This document shows positions 51,004 to 60,800 of a DNA stretch of 64,000 bases, one piece after another (the stretch's first letter is position 1; each line of letters starts with the position of its first letter). Both the position numbers and the translations under genes were made by a program. The notes under the pieces were generated by a model. That model searched no databases. It worked only from the letters and a program-made list of their open reading frames with translations, and was not told the origin of the DNA. The stretch is taken from assembly GCF_003019035.1 (NCBI RefSeq), contig NZ_CP027447.1; one strand, given 5' to 3'. The DNA is from Escherichia coli (GTDB lineage: Bacteria > Pseudomonadota > Gammaproteobacteria > Enterobacterales > Enterobacteriaceae).

Positions 51004-51750
51004 TTACTTCTTAATAAATTGAGGAAGTTTGGATAGATTTTTATACGCTAAAGCTATTGGCCAGATAATACCATTCTGTTTCATAGCGCGAATATCTTCC
51101 ATTGATTTATTGATCATGGAAGATACTGAGCGATTGCTAATTCCACCAACACGCATTTTCACTAATACTTTTGGTAAGTACGCTATTGAAATACGCTGTT
51201 TTAAAATATAACGTAATAATGAGTCATAATCAGCAGATATTCGGTAATCTAATGAAAAACAACCAAACTGACTATAACAATCGCGTTTCATATAAAATGA
51301 TGGGTGTGGCGGCATCCAACCTAGTTTCATCTTCAAACGGCTAAATGAGCCACTCTTCCATAATCTAATACGTTTAGTTGTATCATTTTTGGCAACATAC
51401 TCCAAATCACCATAAACAGCATCACACCCTGAACTTTCAAATGTTTTTACTATATCTGCAATAGCATCGTCATAAGCAAGTAAGTCATCAGAGTGCAAAA
51501 ATCCAATTATATCACCAGAAGCTGCTTGAATACCTTTATTCAGTGCATCATAAATGCCATTGTCGGGTTCGCAAATGATTGTTGAAACTCTTGTACATTT
51601 ACTCTTGATTAGCTCTATTGTATTATCTTTCGATGCCCCATCTACAACTATATATTCAATATCTGAATGTGTTTGTTTTTCCAGAGAGAGTAATGTATCA
51701 AGAAGCGTTTTTTCACTATTATAAGTTGCTGTGATAATTGAAATCCGCAT
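51004..51750 (-). CDS. Family-2 glycosyltransferase (GT-A fold)
   Basis: 248-aa ORF with MRISIITATYNSEKTL…VVDGASKDNT…DNGIYDALNKG…, a typical GT2 signature. Confidence 0.75.
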   Translation of the reverse strand: MRISIITATYNSEKTLLDTLLSLEKQTHSDIEYIVVDGASKDNTIELIKSKCTRVSTIICEPDNGIYDALNKGIQAASGDIIGFLHSDDLLAYDDAIADIVKTFESSGCDAVYGDLEYVAKNDTTKRIRLWKSGSFSRLKMKLGWMPPHPSFYMKRDCYSQFGCFSLDYRISADYDSLLRYILKQRISIAYLPKVLVKMRVGGISNRSVSSMINKSMEDIRAMKQNGIIWPIALAYKNLSKLPQFIKK

Positions 51751-55737: not shown

Positions 55738-56769
55738 CTAAATATTCAACTCATTATAAACTTTAATCGTTTCATTAACACATTTTGACCATGAAAATTT
55801 TTGCGCCTGCAGTAAACCTCTTTCGATCATAACATTTCTTTTTAAATTAACTAATTCTAAAGCTTCTTTTAACGTAAACTCATTAATATCATCAATATAA
55901 ATAGGCGCATTCCCCCCTACTTCCGGCAACGAGGATGTGTTTGCACAAATAACTGGACATCCGGCCTGCATAGCTTCTAGGACAGGTATTCCAAACCCCT
56001 CATAACTGGAAGGGTAAACAAGTGCATATGCAGTATTATACTGTATATTTAAATCTTCATTACTCAAAAATGTAAAATGTTCATATCTATTTTTTAAATA
56101 TTTTTCAAGGAGTTCTCTTTCATATTTTTTAAGCGAGCCTCCGCCTACAATTGTAAGCTTTAAGCCATGTAATTTCCCTACAGCTTTGACTGCAAGAACG
56201 AAATTTTTATAACCTTCTCTGGCACCGACAAACAAAACTGAATTATTTACTCTCATATCAGACATGTTAGAAATATGTTTATATGATGGGGATACACCAT
56301 TATAAATCACTCTAATTTTATCTTCGCTAATTGGACAGTACTTAAGTAAATCTCTAGCAGTGTTGTTTGAAATACAAATTACGATATCACTATTCTTGAT
56401 AGCATGATATTTTTGAAGAGAATGAATAAATTTTGACATTCCTCCCCTGTATTTTTCATAGGTGAAATCATGAACAGTTGTAACATTTTTCACATTCAAA
56501 TTAGGACTTTTATGAACTCGATAATAACTTGAGTGTAAAACCCTAGTTTTAATATCACTTACATTTCTATATCTTTCTAAAATTCTTGGCTTACGATATT
56601 GCAACTTTAAGTCGCTTGTATCAAACTCAAATTCTTTATTTTTATACAATAGAATTTCAGCTTGGTAATTTGATTTCACCATTCCTTGGATCAACTCATT
56701 AAAGTATACACTTATTCCACCAAATGATTGGAGATTATAAATAATCCCATCGATAGTTACCATTATCAT
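55738..56769 (-). CDS. Family-4 (GT-B, retaining) glycosyltransferase
   Basis: 343-aa ORF with C-terminal EX7E-type motif (…YPSSYEGFGIPVLEAMQAGCPVI…). Confidence 0.8.
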   Translation of the reverse strand: MIMVTIDGIIYNLQSFGGISVYFNELIQGMVKSNYQAEILLYKNKEFEFDTSDLKLQYRKPRILERYRNVSDIKTRVLHSSYYRVHKSPNLNVKNVTTVHDFTYEKYRGGMSKFIHSLQKYHAIKNSDIVICISNNTARDLLKYCPISEDKIRVIYNGVSPSYKHISNMSDMRVNNSVLFVGAREGYKNFVLAVKAVGKLHGLKLTIVGGGSLKKYERELLEKYLKNRYEHFTFLSNEDLNIQYNTAYALVYPSSYEGFGIPVLEAMQAGCPVICANTSSLPEVGGNAPIYIDDINEFTLKEALELVNLKRNVMIERGLLQAQKFSWSKCVNETIKVYNELNI

Positions 56770-58022
56770 CGCCCTCGCAAGGTAATACGTTCGATTAGAA
56801 CGAACAATATCAAAAAGAAGATCAGTAACAATACATATGCCGGCCCAGCAAAATAAGTTCCAAATGAAGGTGAAATGAGAATTATAGAAAGCAAAAAAAA
56901 GGATGCAGAGTTCGTAATTACTTTTGCATTAAACATTTTAAGCTTAGCAAAAATATAGCCATAAAAGATATTCATAGGTGAAAGAAAAGTTAAAATGATC
57001 AGTCCAACATATCCATAATCAACAAAATTATCCATCCCTTTTGAAAAAGCAGGTGTATGCCCCGACTCTGCAGCTCCTGGATAATAGATTTCATTTACAT
57101 GCAGAAATCCATATACAAAAGGTTTATCAGGAAACAAACCTCTCGGTATATAAGACCAAAATTGGCTGAAATAGACTGTGCCATTGAAAAACTTAACCAC
57201 ACCTTTATCAATATCTTGTAGCAAATAAATACTGTTTTGATACTGGTCAAAATAAGACAATACTACATCGACATTCATATTTCCAATAGCTAAAAATAAA
57301 TTATAGAGAATGGCACACGCTGCCAGGGGTGTAACTAAAATCAGGCCAAATTTTAGAAATCTAGATTTATTAAGACTTAACACTGCAAGATAAAAAATCG
57401 CAAATGAAAGAATAAAGGTTTTCGATCCAAGAAAAAAAACCAAGGTACAATAGAATATCGCGCATAAAAATAATTTTATTTCCGAGCGTAAAGCCAACGC
57501 CCTGGAAAAATAAGATACCGAAAGCATACTTAAAGAAAAGGCATATAAAACACCATTACCTTCTCGATAGTTTTGATAACCATCCCTGGGATTCGTCAAC
57601 CATCCAGAAATACCTATTTCTGACTTTGAAGAAAGAAGAACAAATAATGTAATAAACAGAACCAATGTAATATTTGATATTCTTTTTAATTTTGTATGCG
57701 AAATTAAGCAAGTTAAATAGATCTCTCTATTTTTGAATGCTATATTAAAAATAAAATAAAAGAAAATTATAGATAAAACACCCACAAAAGAGTATATGTT
57801 ATATATAAATAAAGCCTCATTATAATATTGATTTAAAGCAAAGTCTGAACCGTAGAAAAGAGGAGCCAAAATATTTTCCAATAGAAAAACCGGAAATAAA
57901 ATAATGGCGTAAATGGTAAAGGGATTGATAATTGTAAGTCTTAGCGTTTTCGTCGCTAATAAAGAAAAAGAATAATATAGTACTATAGCTAGTGTAACAT
58001 TTAAACAATATATTATTACCAC
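56766..58022 (-). CDS. wzy: O-antigen polymerase
   Basis: 418-aa, highly hydrophobic multi-TM ORF with a large loop, AT-rich, no recognisable enzyme motif; typical of Wzy inside an O-antigen cluster. Confidence 0.65.
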   Translation of the reverse strand: MVIIYCLNVTLAIVLYYSFSLLATKTLRLTIINPFTIYAIILFPVFLLENILAPLFYGSDFALNQYYNEALFIYNIYSFVGVLSIIFFYFIFNIAFKNREIYLTCLISHTKLKRISNITLVLFITLFVLLSSKSEIGISGWLTNPRDGYQNYREGNGVLYAFSLSMLSVSYFSRALALRSEIKLFLCAIFYCTLVFFLGSKTFILSFAIFYLAVLSLNKSRFLKFGLILVTPLAACAILYNLFLAIGNMNVDVVLSYFDQYQNSIYLLQDIDKGVVKFFNGTVYFSQFWSYIPRGLFPDKPFVYGFLHVNEIYYPGAAESGHTPAFSKGMDNFVDYGYVGLIILTFLSPMNIFYGYIFAKLKMFNAKVITNSASFFLLSIILISPSFGTYFAGPAYVLLLIFFLILFVLIERITLRGR

Positions 58023-58032
58023 ATCCTCCCCC

Positions 58033-58842
58033 CTATCTTAAACCGAATAATTTGCGCTTAATTGATTTTGTTTTTTGATATAATGCTTGAGGAACAATCA
58101 CTTTAAATAAAACTTGCAATGAATTATAGACAGCAAATTTTATTTTATATGATAAGGGCATATGAATATTATTTTTAGCTAGAATATAAGCAATTTCTTT
58201 CTTGACTAATTTTTTATTAGATTCATTTGAACTTACACCCGAAGCATCCATTATGGATACAGGAAAATTCACATAATGCATCGTAGATGGATCTATTGTT
58301 CTTATCATAAAATCACTATCAGCAGCAATTTTTAGTGTTGTATCAAAGCGATTAGCATTATCTTTAAAAAAGCTAGAATGCTGGAAAGTACCCTGATGAG
58401 GAGGAAGTGAAGGCCGACCACATTCCCACTTTTTCTTTATTTTTCCGTAAACTCCAACTATATTATCTTCATCACTAAAATATACATCACCATATATAGT
58501 TGTTGCACTCATATTTTCGTGAATGGCATTTGCTATTTTTGAAAGAGTATTATTTTCATAGAATGTATCGCCAGCTCCCATAAAAATAACCCAATCGCCA
58601 TTTATGTGAGGAAGAGCTTTATTCCAAGCGTCGTATATTCCTTGATCAGATTCGCATAAAAAATAATCTATAATATCAATATATCTATAAATATATTCTA
58701 GTGTTGATTTGTTAGAGTTGCCGTCTATAACAATCCATTGAATATTACAATAATTTTGATTTTTAATAGATTCCGCAGTCTTGCAGAAATCTTCCTCACA
58801 ATTATACGTCGATGTTATTATAGTAATCTGTAAGCCATTCAT
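58033..58842 (-). CDS. Family-2 glycosyltransferase (GT-A fold)
   Basis: 269-aa ORF with ITIITSTYNCEEDF…VIDGNSNKST…DQGIYDAWNKA…; paralogous to the 51004..51750 ORF. Confidence 0.75.
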   Translation of the reverse strand: MNGLQITIITSTYNCEEDFCKTAESIKNQNYCNIQWIVIDGNSNKSTLEYIYRYIDIIDYFLCESDQGIYDAWNKALPHINGDWVIFMGAGDTFYENNTLSKIANAIHENMSATTIYGDVYFSDEDNIVGVYGKIKKKWECGRPSLPPHQGTFQHSSFFKDNANRFDTTLKIAADSDFMIRTIDPSTMHYVNFPVSIMDASGVSSNESNKKLVKKEIAYILAKNNIHMPLSYKIKFAVYNSLQVLFKVIVPQALYQKTKSIKRKLFGLR

Positions 58843-58848
58843 CTTAAC

Positions 58849-59559
58849 TCACTTATTTTTCATGGCAATATATTTTAATCTTAATTCTTTAATTAAGGTC
58901 TTTACTTTACTATCAGTGGAATACTCAATATTAAACGTGCCAGAGACTCCTCTTATTTTGGGAATAGTTGTTCCAATAACTCCTTTTAATTTATTATTTT
59001 TAATTTGCTCAAAAAAAATGTGTTCTAAATAAACACCATCAAGGTCACGCACAGATTTATAAGAATTAGCAAAAAAGTCCCAATATATTTTTTTATTTAC
59101 AACATAAAACCTTGTATCAATCATATTTTCATTCAGAAAAGGAACTGGTATAAAAAAAGCTTTACCATTGAATGCTTTTATACATTGCTTATAATTATCG
59201 ACGTATAGTTTTGATGTTATTTTTGCGAAACTTTCAGCATTAGACAAATAGCGACTATTCATTAATGCATACTCAATTATTTCACCCTCTCCGTAACCTT
59301 TACCATAAGATTTAACACTTTCTGTATCATTTTTGAAATGTATTATCTCGATCGAATCTTTATTAAGTATTTGTTTATCATTATGAATATCTTTCGTCAA
59401 ATCATAATCACTACCATCACATATTACTATAGAATCAGCATTCTTAGACAATTCTCTTATCGCTTTCAATGTATGTAATAATCTTGAATTTTCATCAGAA
59501 AGATTTGTAAGAGGAGCATTAGGTGAGATACAAGAAGTCACTAATACTGGGATTTTCAT
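58849..59559 (-). CDS. Hypothetical protein within the O-antigen cluster (possible novel glycosyltransferase or modifying enzyme)
   Basis: About 236 aa from MKIPVLVTSCISPNAPLT… (ORF track starts at an upstream Met that would overlap wzx); no motif I can assign; soluble-looking. Confidence 0.5.
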   Translation of the reverse strand: MKIPVLVTSCISPNAPLTNLSDENSRLLHTLKAIRELSKNADSIVICDGSDYDLTKDIHNDKQILNKDSIEIIHFKNDTESVKSYGKGYGEGEIIEYALMNSRYLSNAESFAKITSKLYVDNYKQCIKAFNGKAFFIPVPFLNENMIDTRFYVVNKKIYWDFFANSYKSVRDLDGVYLEHIFFEQIKNNKLKGVIGTTIPKIRGVSGTFNIEYSTDSKVKTLIKELRLKYIAMKNK

Positions 59560-60800
59560 TTTTTCTTTTCCAGCCTCAACGAAATTAACATTAGTATAAA
59601 ATAATCGGCGGTGACTCTTGCGCTCCAGGCATAAGCCACACCTGCTACAGAAAAATACATAATTGAAAAATATAAAACTAGCAGATATGGAATACATTCA
59701 ACAAGATGAATGAGACCCGTAATTTTTGCATAACCTTTCGATTGGATTTGAGCAAATGGAACTTGAGCAAGAGAGTTGAATACAAAACCTACTAATAATA
59801 TTTGAAATATATAAGGACTCTCAGCGCTATATTGTTTTCCAAGCCATAAAGTTATAATATCACTAGCCTTCAAAGAAAACATAATAGATATAACTATACT
59901 AGTTACACTTATTAATAACGTAGCCTCTTTTATTATTTTTTTTCGCTCATTTTTTGTATTATTCTTGCATAGAGCAGGAAAAATTGTCCTTGCTATAGTT
60001 GTCGGTAATATAAGTAACTTTGAAATTGCATCCGCAGGAGCAATATATAACGAAGCTTTAGCAGGGCCAACTGCATTTGATAAGATAAATCGGTCAATAT
60101 TTGTAAGCAATGGGTTAATTATACTACTAATACTCGCCCATCCTCCAAAACTTAATAGTGCTTTTGTTTTACTTAGACTAAAATCCATTGTAAGCCTATT
60201 ATTTCTAAAAACAAAGAACACGCTTAAAAGAGCACCAGTTATTCTCGCAATCACCAATCCCAAAGTAGCATTAAGCAAACCAACATTTCCATGAATGAAA
60301 ATAACTGGTAGTAGCGCAGTTAACACACCTGTAATTGTTTTTTGTACATTTAATAATTTGAATTTTTCATATCCTTCTAATATCCCCCAACAAACCATAT
60401 TAAGAAGATAAAATGGCAGACAGTAGGATAAAACACTTATAGCATATGCAACACTTTCAGTTTGTTCCGGACCACTAATTAAGGATGCAATCTTATGGTT
60501 GCAGTAATAAAAAATTACGGATACAACAACACCAATAGATAATGTTAATAAAAATGATGTTGTAATTATTTGACTGATTGCCTTTTTGTCGTTTTTATTT
60601 AATGATATTTCACGTACAACGGCTCGCGAAAGTCCGAGATCAAATATACTTGCGTATCCAACTATTGTAAAAAACATTAAAAAAAAGCCAAAGTTAGTTA
60701 TTCCTAACTCCCTTGCCAAATACCCCATCGCAGGTATTGACAATAAAGTTGGGATTGCATACCCAGCCAAATTTATTAAACTATTTATTTTAATACTCAT
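59556..60800 (-). CDS. wzx: O-antigen flippase (MOP / polysaccharide-biosynthesis family)
   Basis: 414-aa ORF with about 12 predicted TM segments; position next to the rml genes is typical. Confidence 0.75.
   Translation of the reverse strand: MSIKINSLINLAGYAIPTLLSIPAMGYLARELGITNFGFFLMFFTIVGYASIFDLGLSRAVVREISLNKNDKKAISQIITTSFLLTLSIGVVVSVIFYYCNHKIASLISGPEQTESVAYAISVLSYCLPFYLLNMVCWGILEGYEKFKLLNVQKTITGVLTALLPVIFIHGNVGLLNATLGLVIARITGALLSVFFVFRNNRLTMDFSLSKTKALLSFGGWASISSIINPLLTNIDRFILSNAVGPAKASLYIAPADAISKLLILPTTIARTIFPALCKNNTKNERKKIIKEATLLISVTSIVISIMFSLKASDIITLWLGKQYSAESPYIFQILLVGFVFNSLAQVPFAQIQSKGYAKITGLIHLVECIPYLLVLYFSIMYFSVAGVAYAWSARVTADYFILMLISLRLEKKK

What the first reader, a model, noticed from the sequence alone, without database searches (positions are those of the whole stretch)
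58849..59559. Uncharacterised ~236-aa ORF between wzx and a GT2 gene
All other ORFs in the O-antigen cluster can be placed in a family by eye; this one cannot. It has no obvious GT-A motif context, EX7E motif, acyltransferase hexapeptide repeats or TM helices. Given the count of sugars versus transferases, it is the best candidate for an additional (possibly fucosyl or rhamnosyl) transferase or an O-unit modifying enzyme of an undescribed family.
Basis: inference. Interest (0 to 1): 0.5.

Follow-up and report, generated by a model that had tools for sequence, protein, structure and literature searches.

The report
Orphan GT-A-like transferase in O36 cluster
The unplaced 236-residue gene in this E. 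coli O36 O-antigen cluster is real and most likely encodes the cluster's fourth sugar-adding enzyme, from a large, uncatalogued branch of a well-known enzyme fold that lacks the usual metal-binding motif; the sugar it adds is still unknown.

Summary
The ORF is confirmed at 58849-59559 on the minus strand (236 aa). Its ATG overlaps the wzx stop as ATGA. The window is the E. coli O36 O-antigen locus, and RefSeq calls this gene "hypothetical protein".

No Pfam or NCBIfam model matches it or 83 relatives. It nevertheless belongs to a large family (2,326 clusters at 50% identity) found in glycan-synthesis loci of five phyla.

An AlphaFold model (pLDDT 95.8) has the GT-A / nucleotide-diphospho-sugar-transferase fold. 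It is about equally distant from GT2 glycosyltransferases and cytidylyltransferases. The only sequence-level signal points to GT2: the helix1-strand2-"CDGS" region.

The canonical DXD position carries K113-x-T115-x-K/R117. The signature motif is an invariant GKGYGEGE.

Family members sit next to, or are fused with, fucosyl-type transferases (WcaE-like GT2, GT11, GT10), Wzx, and Wzy/GT-C-like membrane domains.

The published O36 topology implies five sugars and four transferases. Only three recognisable transferases are present, so this gene is the missing one by elimination.

Best reading: a cytoplasmic, probably inverting and DXD-independent glycosyltransferase (about 0.68). Donor and linkage are unresolved. 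The two neighbouring WcaE-like GT2s are better candidates for Fuc and Rha transfer.

It is a new variant of a known kind, of moderate interest.

The parts
58849..59559 (-). ORF-X, 236 aa, GT-A-like protein of an uncatalogued family (RefSeq WP_032084600.1, 'hypothetical protein')
59556..59559 (-). ATGA overlap of the wzx stop and the ORF-X start, consistent with translational coupling; the same 4-nt overlap occurs in Buttiauxella L002
59410..59421 (-). C47-D48-G49-S50 after strand 2, the counterpart of the GT2 'D-D/G-x-S' nucleotide-binding motif. In the 81-sequence alignment C is present in 78 sequences, D/E in all 81, and S/T in all 81.
59281..59304 (-). G86-K-G-Y-G-E-G-E93, the signature motif of the family (G86, K87, G88, G90, E91, G92 invariant in 81 sequences), lying at the start of helix 87-101
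59209..59223 (-). K113-I-T115-S-K117 in and just after strand 4, where GT-A enzymes carry DXD. K113 is invariant, T115 is present in 80/81, and position 117 is K or R in 81/81.
   Evidence: positional equivalence to SpsA T97-D98-D99 is inferred from secondary-structure order
59104..59118 (-). D148-T-R-F-Y152 in strand 6 (D in 76/81, T in 80/81); inferred to correspond to SpsA D158-H159
59020..59028 (-). L178-E179-H180 at the start of helix 178-188. E179 is invariant and is the candidate catalytic base (compare SpsA D191 'DARFFW' with 'EHIFFE').
   Evidence: inference
58939..58950 (-). G204-V-S-G207 (G204 and G207 invariant)
59556..60800 (-). wzx, the O36 O-unit flippase, immediately upstream of ORF-X
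58033..58842 (-). 269-aa WcaE-like GT2 directly downstream of ORF-X. The ORF-X/WcaE-like-GT2 gene pair recurs in three phyla.
56766..58022 (-). wzy, the O36 polymerase (418-aa ORF, GTG start)
55738..56769 (-). GT4 (retaining GT-B) glycosyltransferase
51004..51750 (-). 248-aa WcaE-like GT2 between manC and manB. By position and by the statement in PMC10606467 it is WfeY, the alpha-L-Fuc-(1->3)-GlcNAc transferase.

Best explanation
ORF-X is most likely the fourth glycosyltransferase of the E. coli O36 O-unit. It would be a soluble or peripherally membrane-bound cytoplasmic enzyme with a GT-A (nucleotide-diphospho-sugar transferase) fold. It would add one residue to the undecaprenyl-diphosphate-linked intermediate before Wzx flips the finished pentasaccharide.

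Shown here:
- The gene is real, conserved and specific to O36 within E. coli.
- The predicted fold is GT-A-like.
- The only sequence-level affinity is to GT2.
- The family occurs in glycan-assembly loci of many phyla.
- Family members are adjacent to or fused with other glycosyltransferases and with Wzx or Wzy/GT-C-like membrane proteins.

Inferred mechanism:
- D48 of the C-D-G-S motif binds the nucleotide.
- The canonical DXD/metal site is replaced by K113-x-T115-x-K/R117. The diphosphate would then be neutralised by basic side chains, possibly with E91/E93 of GKGYGEGE, rather than by a DXD-bound Mn2+/Mg2+.
- The invariant E179 at the start of helix 6 acts as the general base of an inverting transfer.
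- The basic C-terminal amphipathic helix (residues 218-235) would hold the enzyme at the membrane.

The GT genes appear in the order ORF-X, GT2, GT4, WfeY. WfeY makes the first linkage, Fuc-alpha1,3-GlcNAc. The common reverse-order rule therefore suggests that ORF-X adds the last residue, probably on a side branch. The donor is unresolved. An inverting enzyme would give a beta-D-hexose from a UDP-sugar, or an alpha-L-Rha/Fuc from dTDP-Rha or GDP-Fuc. Family members are adjacent to or fused with GT11, GT10 and WcaE-like fucosyl-type transferases. I therefore lean towards ORF-X making, or extending from, the residue that carries the 6-deoxy-L-hexose, rather than being the fucosyl- or rhamnosyltransferase itself.
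For: Gene reality and specificity:
- The gene is real.
- Within 5,426 complete E. coli genomes it occurs only in 8 O36 genomes.

Fold and sequence affinity:
- The AF2 model has pLDDT 95.8 and pTM 0.93.
- AFDB50 neighbours with TM 0.8-0.9 include proteins named 'Glycosyltransferase 2-like domain-containing'.
- hhalign of the 81-sequence family profile against a 70-sequence GT2 profile gives E 1.3e-3 over helix1-strand2-DGS. Against an RmlA/ManC/GalF profile it gives E 0.56, and against IspD 0.21.
- Pfam gives a weak Glycos_transf_2 match to the same region.

Conserved residues:
- The conserved polar set R26, D48, E71, K87, E91, E93, K113, T115, K/R117, N122, D148, E179 argues for catalysis.

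Genomic context in 88 loci:
- The loci are O-antigen, capsule/EPS and LPS-core-like.
- A WcaE-like GT2 lies directly downstream in 8 loci from 3 phyla.
- GT11 or GT10 is adjacent in 4 loci, and fucose-pathway or FucT markers occur within 8 kb in 29 of 88.

Fusions:
- ORF-X fused to GT11 (P0306, PF01531).
- A GT1 domain fused to ORF-X (A0A5J4SRD7).
- Wzx fused to ORF-X (P0152).
- A GT-C/Wzy-like membrane domain fused to ORF-X.

GT count for O36:
- O36 has two side-branch residues. It is not among the two-residue backbones and not among the clusters with an unexplained GT deficit (PMC7685785). That implies five sugars and four GTs, but only three are recognisable.

Precedent:
- A GT-A transferase without a functional DXD already exists: WrtF (PMC12595478).
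Against: - No biochemical or genetic data exist for any family member.
- No Pfam, NCBIfam or PDB sequence model matches.
- The profile-profile signal to GT2 is weak (hhalign probability 18%) and covers only 39 columns.
- I had no model coordinates. The residue roles (K113/K117 at the DXD site, E179 as base) rest on secondary-structure order, not on a superposition.
- The O36 repeat-unit structure (Perepelov 2014, PMID 24699003) was not readable here. The sugar count is deduced from review statements.
- The review's GT count may itself rest on an automatic 'GT2' label.
- The association with fucose genes has no background control, and the loci are not phylogenetically independent.
Confidence: 0.68

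Rival explanations
1. ORF-X is a nucleotidyltransferase of the IspD/TarI/HddC type. It would activate a phosphorylated sugar or alditol (for example to a CDP- or GDP-linked precursor) for the O-antigen, rather than transferring a sugar to the growing unit.
For: - Foldseek against the PDB ranks TarI, TarI-like, HddC, IspD and GMPPA/B first (E 1e-6 to 5e-5).
- There is no DXD. The conserved Lys/Arg residues (R26, K87, K113, K/R117) and a Gly-rich motif would suit NTP binding.
Against: - TM-scores are only 0.38-0.48.
- The defining Gly-x-Gly-Thr/Ser-Arg loop after strand 1 is absent; the family has T8-S9 there and no Gly.
- hhalign to RmlA/ManC/GalF gives E 0.56, and to IspD 0.21 with a misplaced alignment.
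- Both nucleotide-sugar pathways of the cluster are already complete with their own transferases, RmlA and ManC. No orphan reductase, kinase or phosphotransferase partner is present.
- This reading would leave O36 one GT short.
- Fusions are to GT11, GT1, Wzx and Wzy/GT-C-like domains, not to precursor-synthesis enzymes.
Confidence: 0.07
2. ORF-X is a polyprenyl-phosphate glycosyltransferase with a GtrB/DPMS-like function. It would load a sugar onto undecaprenyl phosphate, and a membrane GT-C enzyme would then add that sugar to the O-unit on the periplasmic side.
For: - Some family members are fused to polytopic membrane domains. P0278 has an N-terminal domain with weak Alg6_Alg8 (E 6e-4) and GT87 (E 1.6e-3) matches.
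- The 613-aa Lachnospiraceae proteins carry an unclassified N-terminal domain of about 10 TM helices.
- Butyrivibrio L089 has a GT-C-like 'XrtG-associated glycosyltransferase' directly downstream.
- There is a Wzx fusion (P0152) and frequent adjacency to flippase or ABC-exporter genes.
- The basic residues could bind the acceptor phosphate.
Against: - Known enzymes of this class are strong PF00535 matches with DXD, and usually have C-terminal TM helices. ORF-X has none of these.
- The O36, Buttiauxella, Vibrio and Shewanella loci contain only Wzx and one Wzy-like membrane protein. No GT-C partner is present.
- The fusions to cytoplasmic GT11 and GT1 domains fit a conventional cytoplasmic pathway better.
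Confidence: 0.08
3. ORF-X is not itself catalytic. It would be a degenerate GT-A-like accessory subunit that scaffolds or regulates the adjacent WcaE-like GT2 or Wzx.
For: - The canonical DXD is lost.
- There is a conserved adjacency with a WcaE-like GT2 in three phyla and tight coupling or fusion to Wzx.
- WrtF-type GT2 fucosyltransferases bind their donor non-productively and need a rearrangement (PMC12595478). A partner could in principle assist this.
Against: - Twelve invariant and several near-invariant residues, mostly charged or polar or Gly, are kept across five phyla at 20-40% overall identity. This pattern is typical of an active site, not of a scaffold.
- Many family members occur without a WcaE-like GT2 or Wzx nearby, for example about 25 betaproteobacterial loci where ORF-X pairs with a DUF6492-like gene.
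- O36 would be one GT short.
Confidence: 0.05

Closest known systems
GT2-type GT-A glycosyltransferases (Pfam PF00535; structural archetype SpsA, PDB 1QG8/1H7L; K4CP 2Z86)
   Same: - Same alpha/beta/alpha fold and strand order.
- Acidic residue in a D-G-S context after strand 2.
- An invariant acid at the start of the helix where inverting GT2 enzymes carry their base (E179 versus SpsA D191; inference).
- Similar size of about 240 aa, a cytoplasmic location, and residence in an O-antigen cluster.
   Different: - No significant PF00535 match for any of 83 members.
- DXD is replaced by K-x-T-x-K/R.
- A unique invariant GKGYGEGE motif is present.
- The loop between strand 1 and helix 1 is long (13 residues).
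WrtF / WcaE / WbdO clade of GT2 fucosyltransferases (PDB 9OMH; PMC12595478)
   Same: - Role in O-antigen synthesis.
- Departure from the canonical metal-binding DXD.
- Use of beta-linked 6-deoxy-L-hexose donors would suit an O36 unit that contains Fuc and Rha.
   Different: - ORF-X has no detectable sequence similarity to this clade: it has no TIGR04009 hit, whereas both neighbouring GT2s hit it at E 1e-17 to 1e-18.
- WrtF uses neither metal nor basic residues, whereas ORF-X conserves basic residues at the DXD position.
- ORF-X lacks WrtF's C-terminal helical bundle.
Metal-independent GT-A enzymes that replace the metal with basic side chains, e.g. GT14 core-2 GlcNAc-transferase C2GnT-L (from my own knowledge, not tested here)
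   Same: No DXD. Lys/Arg residues are proposed to neutralise the nucleotide diphosphate. The proposed mechanism is inverting.
   Different: C2GnT-L is a eukaryotic Golgi enzyme of an unrelated sequence family. The equivalence of residues is conjecture, because no superposition was possible.
IspD/TarI/HddC-type nucleotidyltransferases
   Same: Same superfold. They are the best Foldseek matches in the PDB (E about 1e-6). Size is similar, at about 230 aa.
   Different: The N-terminal Gly-rich NTP-binding loop is missing. There is no profile similarity. TM-scores are only about 0.45. The genomic context gives no need for another activating enzyme.

Membership tests
GT-A fold glycosyltransferases, GT2-like (Pfam PF00535 / CAZy GT2) | Rossmann-like alpha/beta/alpha GT-A fold with a central mixed sheet | tested here: met
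   [not shown]
GT-A fold glycosyltransferases, GT2-like (Pfam PF00535 / CAZy GT2) | Significant match to the family profile (PF00535) | tested here: not met
   E 0.17 for the query, and no member of 53 + 30 relatives matches at E<=0.1. hhalign to a local 70-sequence GT2 profile gives E 1.3e-3, probability 18%, over only 39 columns.
GT-A fold glycosyltransferases, GT2-like (Pfam PF00535 / CAZy GT2) | Acidic residue after strand 2 (the 'DDGS'/'DGxS' nucleotide-binding motif) | tested here: met
   C47-D48-G49-S50; D/E in 81/81 sequences; aligned to SpsA D38 and the GT2 'DG.S' motif by hhalign
GT-A fold glycosyltransferases, GT2-like (Pfam PF00535 / CAZy GT2) | DXD (or variant) at the end of strand 4 that binds the divalent cation | tested here: not met
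   This position carries K113-x-T115-x-K/R117. The two literal DxD triplets of the O36 protein (51-53 and 172-174) are not conserved as DxD.
GT-A fold glycosyltransferases, GT2-like (Pfam PF00535 / CAZy GT2) | Catalytic-base Asp/Glu at the start of the helix following the C-terminal strands (inverting GT2) | tested here: inconclusive
   E179 is invariant and lies at residue 2 of helix 178-188. Its equivalence to SpsA D191 rests on secondary-structure order only, because no coordinates were available.
GT-A fold glycosyltransferases, GT2-like (Pfam PF00535 / CAZy GT2) | Glycosyl transfer from a nucleotide sugar | not testable with these tools
   Needs enzymology or genetics
WcaE/WrtF-type GT2 fucosyltransferases | Sequence membership (TIGR04009-like; conserved Asp66/His142-Asn143/Asp167/Phe191 set of PMC12595478) | tested here: not met
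   ORF-X has no NCBIfam hit, whereas both neighbouring GT2s hit TIGR04009 at E 7e-17 and 1e-18
Sugar-phosphate nucleotidyltransferases (IspD/TarI/RmlA/GlmU type) | Gly-rich G-x-G-(T/S)-R loop after strand 1 that binds the NTP | tested here: not met
   The family consensus after strand 1 is L-L-T-S-x-(V/I)-x-x-S-A, with no conserved Gly or Arg in the loop
Sugar-phosphate nucleotidyltransferases (IspD/TarI/RmlA/GlmU type) | Structural similarity | tested here: met
   [not shown]
Sugar-phosphate nucleotidyltransferases (IspD/TarI/RmlA/GlmU type) | Profile similarity to the family | tested here: not met
   hhalign E 0.56 against RmlA/ManC/GalF and 0.21 against IspD
Polyprenyl-phosphate glycosyltransferases (GtrB/ArnC/DPMS) | Strong PF00535 domain with DXD, usually C-terminal TM helices, and a GT-C partner in the system | tested here: not met
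   No PF00535 match, no DXD and no TM helix. There is no GT-C gene in the O36 cluster. A GT-C-like partner or fusion is seen only in some Firmicutes relatives.

The most novel reading that the evidence does not exclude
ORF-X would be the first recognisable member of a large, uncatalogued GT-A glycosyltransferase family (at least about 2,300 clusters at 50% identity, in five phyla). In this family the DXD-metal site has been replaced by a K-x-T-x-K/R strand plus a GKGYGEGE loop, giving a metal-independent inverting transferase. The family would work as a module with 6-deoxy-L-hexose (fucose/rhamnose) transferases. It would, for example, build the beta-linked hexose that GT10, GT11 or WcaE-like enzymes then fucosylate, producing Lewis/H-like epitopes in bacterial surface glycans, including O36 with its Fuc-alpha1,3-GlcNAc element.
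Probability: 0.25. Interest if true: 0.55.

Novelty: new variant of a known kind. Interest (0 to 1): 0.38.

Why it matters
Assigning each O-antigen linkage to an enzyme is still mostly guesswork. Transferases that escape every profile library are the ones that break automated predictions from glycan gene clusters to glycan structures.

This gene shows that a family with thousands of members has no Pfam or NCBIfam model and carries inconsistent labels: 'hypothetical' in RefSeq and 'GT2 family' in UniProt. The family occurs in pathogens, gut Lachnospiraceae, Bacteroidetes and freshwater bacteria.

If it proves to be a DXD-less, basic-residue-dependent GT-A enzyme, it would add a mechanistic variant alongside WrtF and GT14. 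It would also give a new family for CAZy and Pfam. If its coupling to fucosyltransferases is real, it could be a useful part for making fucosylated glycans enzymatically.

For O36 itself, it completes the gene-to-linkage map and is a serogroup-specific marker.

Tried and rejected
1. Spurious sequence hits, dismissed:
- Pfam CK_II_beta (E 2.7e-3).
- PDB flavoprotein 1FVP (E 0.04).
- Duffy-binding protein and LpxC 'DGSG' matches (E 0.26-0.6).
- PADLOC PDC-S70 (E 0.02, 12.9 bits).
All are short, low-scoring and without supporting context.

2. 'Exporter-coupled function'. In the first 8 contexts ORF-X lay directly after wzx or an ABC exporter in 6, and one Wzx-ORF-X fusion exists. In the 88-locus sample an exporter is adjacent in only about 18. 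In about 25 betaproteobacterial loci the upstream partner is instead a DUF6492-like gene. I therefore treat exporter adjacency as ordinary cluster architecture plus membrane tethering, not as a defining feature.

3. First hhalign against a 6-sequence GT2 alignment. It aligned GEGEII with SpsA's strand 4, which contradicts the predicted secondary structure, so that part of the alignment was rejected.

4. Reading the O36 structure paper (PMID 24699003) failed, and four literature searches found no open copy of the structure. The donor and linkage could therefore not be deduced.

5. A second homology search with the broader alignment was dominated by Lachnospiraceae. It did not reach PF00535-bearing distant relatives, so the continuity with GT2 suggested by AFDB names could not be confirmed at sequence level.

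6. A literature search for DUF6492 found nothing.

7. No diverged homologue exists in other E. coli serogroups at the DNA level. A protein search of plasmids found only one Haematobacter plasmid copy.
Full report
**What the window is.** Bases 49.5-64 kb carry an O-antigen gene cluster on the minus strand. The gene order is rmlB-rmlD-rmlA-rmlC, wzx, ORF-X, a GT2, wzy, a GT4, gmd, fcl, gmm, manC, a second GT2, and manB, followed by gnd. The 2.9 kb around the finding is 100% identical to E. coli SCU-301 and two other genomes. RefSeq names their wzx and wzy 'O36 family'. The remaining 49 kb of the window differs from SCU-301 by one base. Within 5,426 complete E. coli genomes the ORF occurs only in the eight O36 genomes, even with a sensitive blastn search.

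**Check of the observation.**
- The start at 59559 gives 236 aa. RefSeq uses the same start, and all aligned homologues begin there.
- The ATG overlaps the wzx stop as ATGA. The Buttiauxella orthologue shows the same overlap.
- In DNA of 29% GC, 236 stop-free codons have a chance probability of about 2e-9.
- Two O36 lineages differ by 7 synonymous and 3 non-synonymous codons, all at unconserved positions.
There is no TM segment, no EX7E, no hexapeptide repeats and no conserved DXD.
- No library places the protein. NCBIfam gives nothing. Pfam gives only Glycos_transf_2 at E 0.17 and a spurious CK_II_beta hit. PDB sequences give nothing, with either the single protein or a family profile.

**The family.**
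- A word-indexed search found 243 relatives. All are hypothetical and carry no Pfam domain. Examples are Buttiauxella (51% identity) and Vibrio, Shewanella and Polynucleobacter (about 40%).
- An exhaustive profile search of 1.84 billion cluster representatives found 2,326 proteins at E<=1e-3 and 1,554 at E<=1e-10.
- A scan of species-representative genomes returned members from Beta-, Gamma- and Alphaproteobacteria, Chlorobiaceae, Bacteroidetes, Lachnospiraceae and other Firmicutes, and Synechococcus.
- None of 53 + 30 members scanned individually matches any Pfam family. Six further members have no match to the ORF-X domain in NCBIfam.
- In an 81-sequence alignment the invariant residues are R26, G86, K87, G88, G90, E91, G92, K113, N122, E179, G204 and G207.
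- Nearly invariant are C47, D48 (D or E), S50, E93, T115, K/R117, D148 and T149.

**Fold.** AlphaFold2 with the 53-sequence alignment gives a confident model (pLDDT 95.8, pTM 0.93) with alternating strands and helices.
- Foldseek against the PDB instead puts TarI, IspD and HddC first, but with TM-scores of only 0.4-0.5.
- Structure therefore places the protein in the superfold without deciding between the two enzyme classes. No solved structure is close (at most 17% identity).
- Against AFDB50 the close neighbours (TM 0.8-0.99) are family members. UniProt variously labels them 'Uncharacterized protein', 'Glycosyltransferase family 2 protein' or 'Glycosyltransferase 2-like domain-containing protein'. 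They include the E. coli protein itself and a 45%-identical E. albertii protein.
- Cluster look-up shows the same split for the O36 protein: 'hypothetical' at NCBI and 'GT family 2' in UniRef.

**Glycosyltransferase or nucleotidyltransferase?** Four lines favour a glycosyltransferase.
1. The only sequence-level signal is to GT2. hhalign of the family profile against a 70-sequence GT2 profile built from the fetched loci gives E 1.3e-3 over helix 1, strand 2 and C-D-G-S. That region aligns with the GT2 'D-G-x-S-x-D-x-T' segment. An RmlA/ManC/GalF profile gives E 0.56, and E. coli IspD gives 0.21 with a nonsensical register (the SpsA and IspD sequences were verified). The weak Pfam hit covers the same region.
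2. The Gly-x-Gly-Thr/Ser-Arg loop that defines the nucleotidyltransferases is absent after strand 1.
3. The cluster has no unmet need for an activating enzyme, because RmlA and ManC are present and both pathways are complete. It does have an unmet need for a transferase (see the O36 count below).
4. The fusion partners are glycan-assembly proteins:
   - ORF-X joined to GT11 (an alpha1,2-fucosyltransferase family), in P0306 (PF01531);
   - a GT1 domain joined to ORF-X (AFDB A0A5J4SRD7);
   - Wzx joined to ORF-X (P0152);
   - a GT-C-like membrane domain joined to ORF-X (P0278, with weak Alg6_Alg8 and GT87 matches);
   - an unclassified domain of about 10 TM helices joined to ORF-X in Lachnospiraceae.
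   These fusions come from metagenomic or MAG gene calls and were not independently verified.

**Active-site reading (inference).** The order of secondary-structure elements matches SpsA element for element. On that basis:
- D48 corresponds to the nucleotide-binding Asp after strand 2 (supported by hhalign).
- Strand 4 (residues 110-115, F-A-K-I-T-S) followed by K117 occupies the place of SpsA Y-A-T-D98-D99. The DXD is therefore replaced by K113-x-T115-x-K/R117.
- D148-T149 in strand 6 corresponds to SpsA D158-H159.
- E179-H-I-F-F-E at the start of helix 6 resembles SpsA D191-A-R-F-F-W, the proposed base region.
- I had no coordinates, so these equivalences are unverified.
- They suggest an inverting transferase that does not use a DXD-bound metal. 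Basic side chains may neutralise the diphosphate, as in GT14 enzymes (my own knowledge). Alternatively E91/E93 of the GKGYGEGE loop may provide another metal site.
- There is a recent precedent for a DXD-independent GT-A enzyme in O-antigen synthesis. WrtF is a GT2 fucosyltransferase that uses neither metal nor basic residues. The authors of that work argue that beta-linked donors such as GDP-Fuc fit poorly with the canonical DXD geometry (PMC12595478).

**Genomic context.** I examined 88 loci: the window, 7 from exact-protein look-ups and 80 from the genome scan. I used ORF calling, phmmer against 77 reference proteins labelled from precomputed Pfam hits, and hydropathy.
- Almost all are glycan loci. 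They include Wzx/Wzy O-antigen or capsule clusters, Wzm/Wzt clusters and, in about 25 Comamonadaceae/Polynucleobacter/Gallionella genomes, an LPS-core-like region. In that region an MsbA-like ABC gene lies 1.6 kb upstream and a DUF6492-like gene lies immediately upstream, often overlapping by 4 nt.
- Fucose markers (gmd/fcl, GT10 or GT11) lie within 8 kb in 29 of 88 loci, and rml genes in 9.
- A WcaE-like GT2 of 238-269 aa lies directly downstream of ORF-X in E. coli O36, Buttiauxella, two Chitinophagaceae, Mariniphaga and three Lachnospiraceae.
- GT11 is adjacent in three Lachnospiraceae, and GT10 in one Chlorobiaceae MAG.
- These counts lack a background control, and the loci are not independent. 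Together with the ORF-X-GT11 fusion, they nevertheless suggest that the family acts next to a 6-deoxy-L-hexose transfer step.
- An early impression that ORF-X always follows the exporter gene did not survive the larger sample. An exporter is adjacent in only about 18 of 88 loci.

**The O36 count.** The O36 structure paper was not available. The E. coli O-antigen review (PMC7685785) states four relevant things:
- O36 is one of the few units with two side-branch residues.
- All two-residue backbones belong to seven other serogroups.
- The clusters with unexplained deficits are O5, O108, O111, O120, O147, O153 and O178, not O36.

It follows that the O36 unit has five residues and that four GTs were counted. 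Only three are recognisable here: the 269-aa GT2, the GT4 and the 248-aa GT2. ORF-X must therefore have been counted as the fourth.

A second paper assigns the GT2 between manC and manB (WfeY) to the alpha-L-Fuc-(1->3)-D-GlcNAc linkage that O36 shares with O41, O156, O159 and O168 (PMC10606467).

Both GT2s best-match WcaE (TIGR04009). WcaE belongs to the GT2 fucosyltransferase clade discussed in the WrtF paper. These two are therefore the natural candidates for the Fuc transfer and the Rha (or second Fuc) transfer, and the GT4 for an alpha-D-hexose. ORF-X would take the remaining linkage.

The GT gene order (ORF-X, GT2, GT4, WfeY) is the reverse of the only known step, since WfeY acts first. 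This reverse order holds in 39% of clusters according to the review. It would make ORF-X the last enzyme to act.

**Verdict.** ORF-X is the best candidate for the extra transferase and has no curated family. However, it does have a GT-A context, it is already auto-labelled GT2 in UniProt, and a fucosyl or rhamnosyl specificity is not favoured over other donors.

My estimates are:
- 0.68 that it is a glycosyltransferase acting on the Und-PP-linked unit;
- 0.08 for a polyprenyl-phosphate sugar synthase;
- 0.07 for a nucleotidyltransferase;
- 0.05 for a non-catalytic partner;
- the remainder unknown.

It is a new variant of a known kind and of moderate interest. It is not surprising to a specialist that an O-antigen cluster holds a divergent GT. 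The size of the uncatalogued family, its replaced DXD site and its recurrent pairing with fucosyl-type transferases still make it a worthwhile target for a family definition and a simple deletion and in-vitro test.

Noticed in passing
window 56766-58022 (-): RefSeq marks wzy as a pseudogene in two O36 lineages ('frameshifted; internal stop' in SCU-301 and 'frameshifted' in strain 06-00048). In both, however, a single uninterrupted frame of 423 codons (418 aa from a GTG start) is present, with no internal indel between them. The pseudogene flag looks like an annotation artefact caused by the reference model or the GTG start.
   Followed up: partly
window 58033-58842 (-) and 51004-51750 (-): Both GT2 genes of the cluster best-match WcaE (TIGR04009; E 7e-17 and 1e-18). 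This places them in the GT2 fucosyltransferase clade of WrtF, WbdO and WcaE. At the DXD position they carry G-A-G-D (269-aa protein) and H-S-D-D (248-aa protein), which are non-canonical variants like those discussed for that clade.
   Followed up: partly
L021, L022, L027, L028, L030, L034, L038, L040, L043, L046-L048, L050, L053, L056, L057, L061, L066, L071, L075, L077 (just upstream of the ORF-X homologue at about 8000): In about 25 betaproteobacterial genomes the ORF-X homologue is preceded by a gene of about 295 aa related to the weak DUF6492 hit of L010, often with a 4-nt overlap. An MsbA-like ABC gene lies about 1.6 kb upstream. This is a conserved pair of two uncharacterised proteins in an LPS-core-like region. 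No paper mentions DUF6492.
   Followed up: partly
L006/L013/L014/L029 8976-9986 and 10809-11570; L016, L017: In Chlorobiaceae-type loci the ORF-X homologue is flanked by two further proteins with no Pfam hit, of about 335 aa and about 253 aa. They lie downstream of the GT10 fucosyltransferase, fcl and gmd genes. The result is a block of three unannotated genes in a fucose-related LPS locus.
   Followed up: no
L004 10832-11674; L035 749-1660; L091 10394-11305: A 280-303-aa protein with no Pfam hit recurs in ORF-X loci of Vibrio, Butyrivibrio and Lachnospiraceae (phmmer E 5e-36 and 2e-28). It is another uncatalogued family of glycan loci.
   Followed up: no
window 59556-59559, 56766-56769, 51750: Several genes of the cluster overlap by start/stop codons. 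wzx/ORF-X overlap as ATGA, wzy/GT4 as ATGA, and the manC stop abuts the GT2 start as TAATG. This suggests translational coupling along the operon.
   Followed up: partly
window about 1-49000 (by identity to NZ_CP051751.1 1967000-2016800): The rest of the window is the usual gnd-ugd-wzzB-his region, with an IS200C transposase gene between wzzB and hisIE. Beyond that lie a complete pdu (propanediol utilisation microcompartment) operon with pocR, a cobalamin riboswitch and cobUST, and three tRNA-Asn genes. GC content drops from about 0.45-0.54 in the flanks to 0.27-0.34 across wzx-ORF-X-GT2-wzy-GT4.
   Followed up: no
NZ_CP035506.1 80495-81172 (Haematobacter massiliensis plasmid, 119 kb): The only plasmid-borne homologue in PLSDB (37% identity, annotated as hypothetical) lies on a non-mobilisable Haematobacter plasmid. 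The Haematobacter loci L015, L018 and L020 carry gmd/fcl nearby.
   Followed up: no
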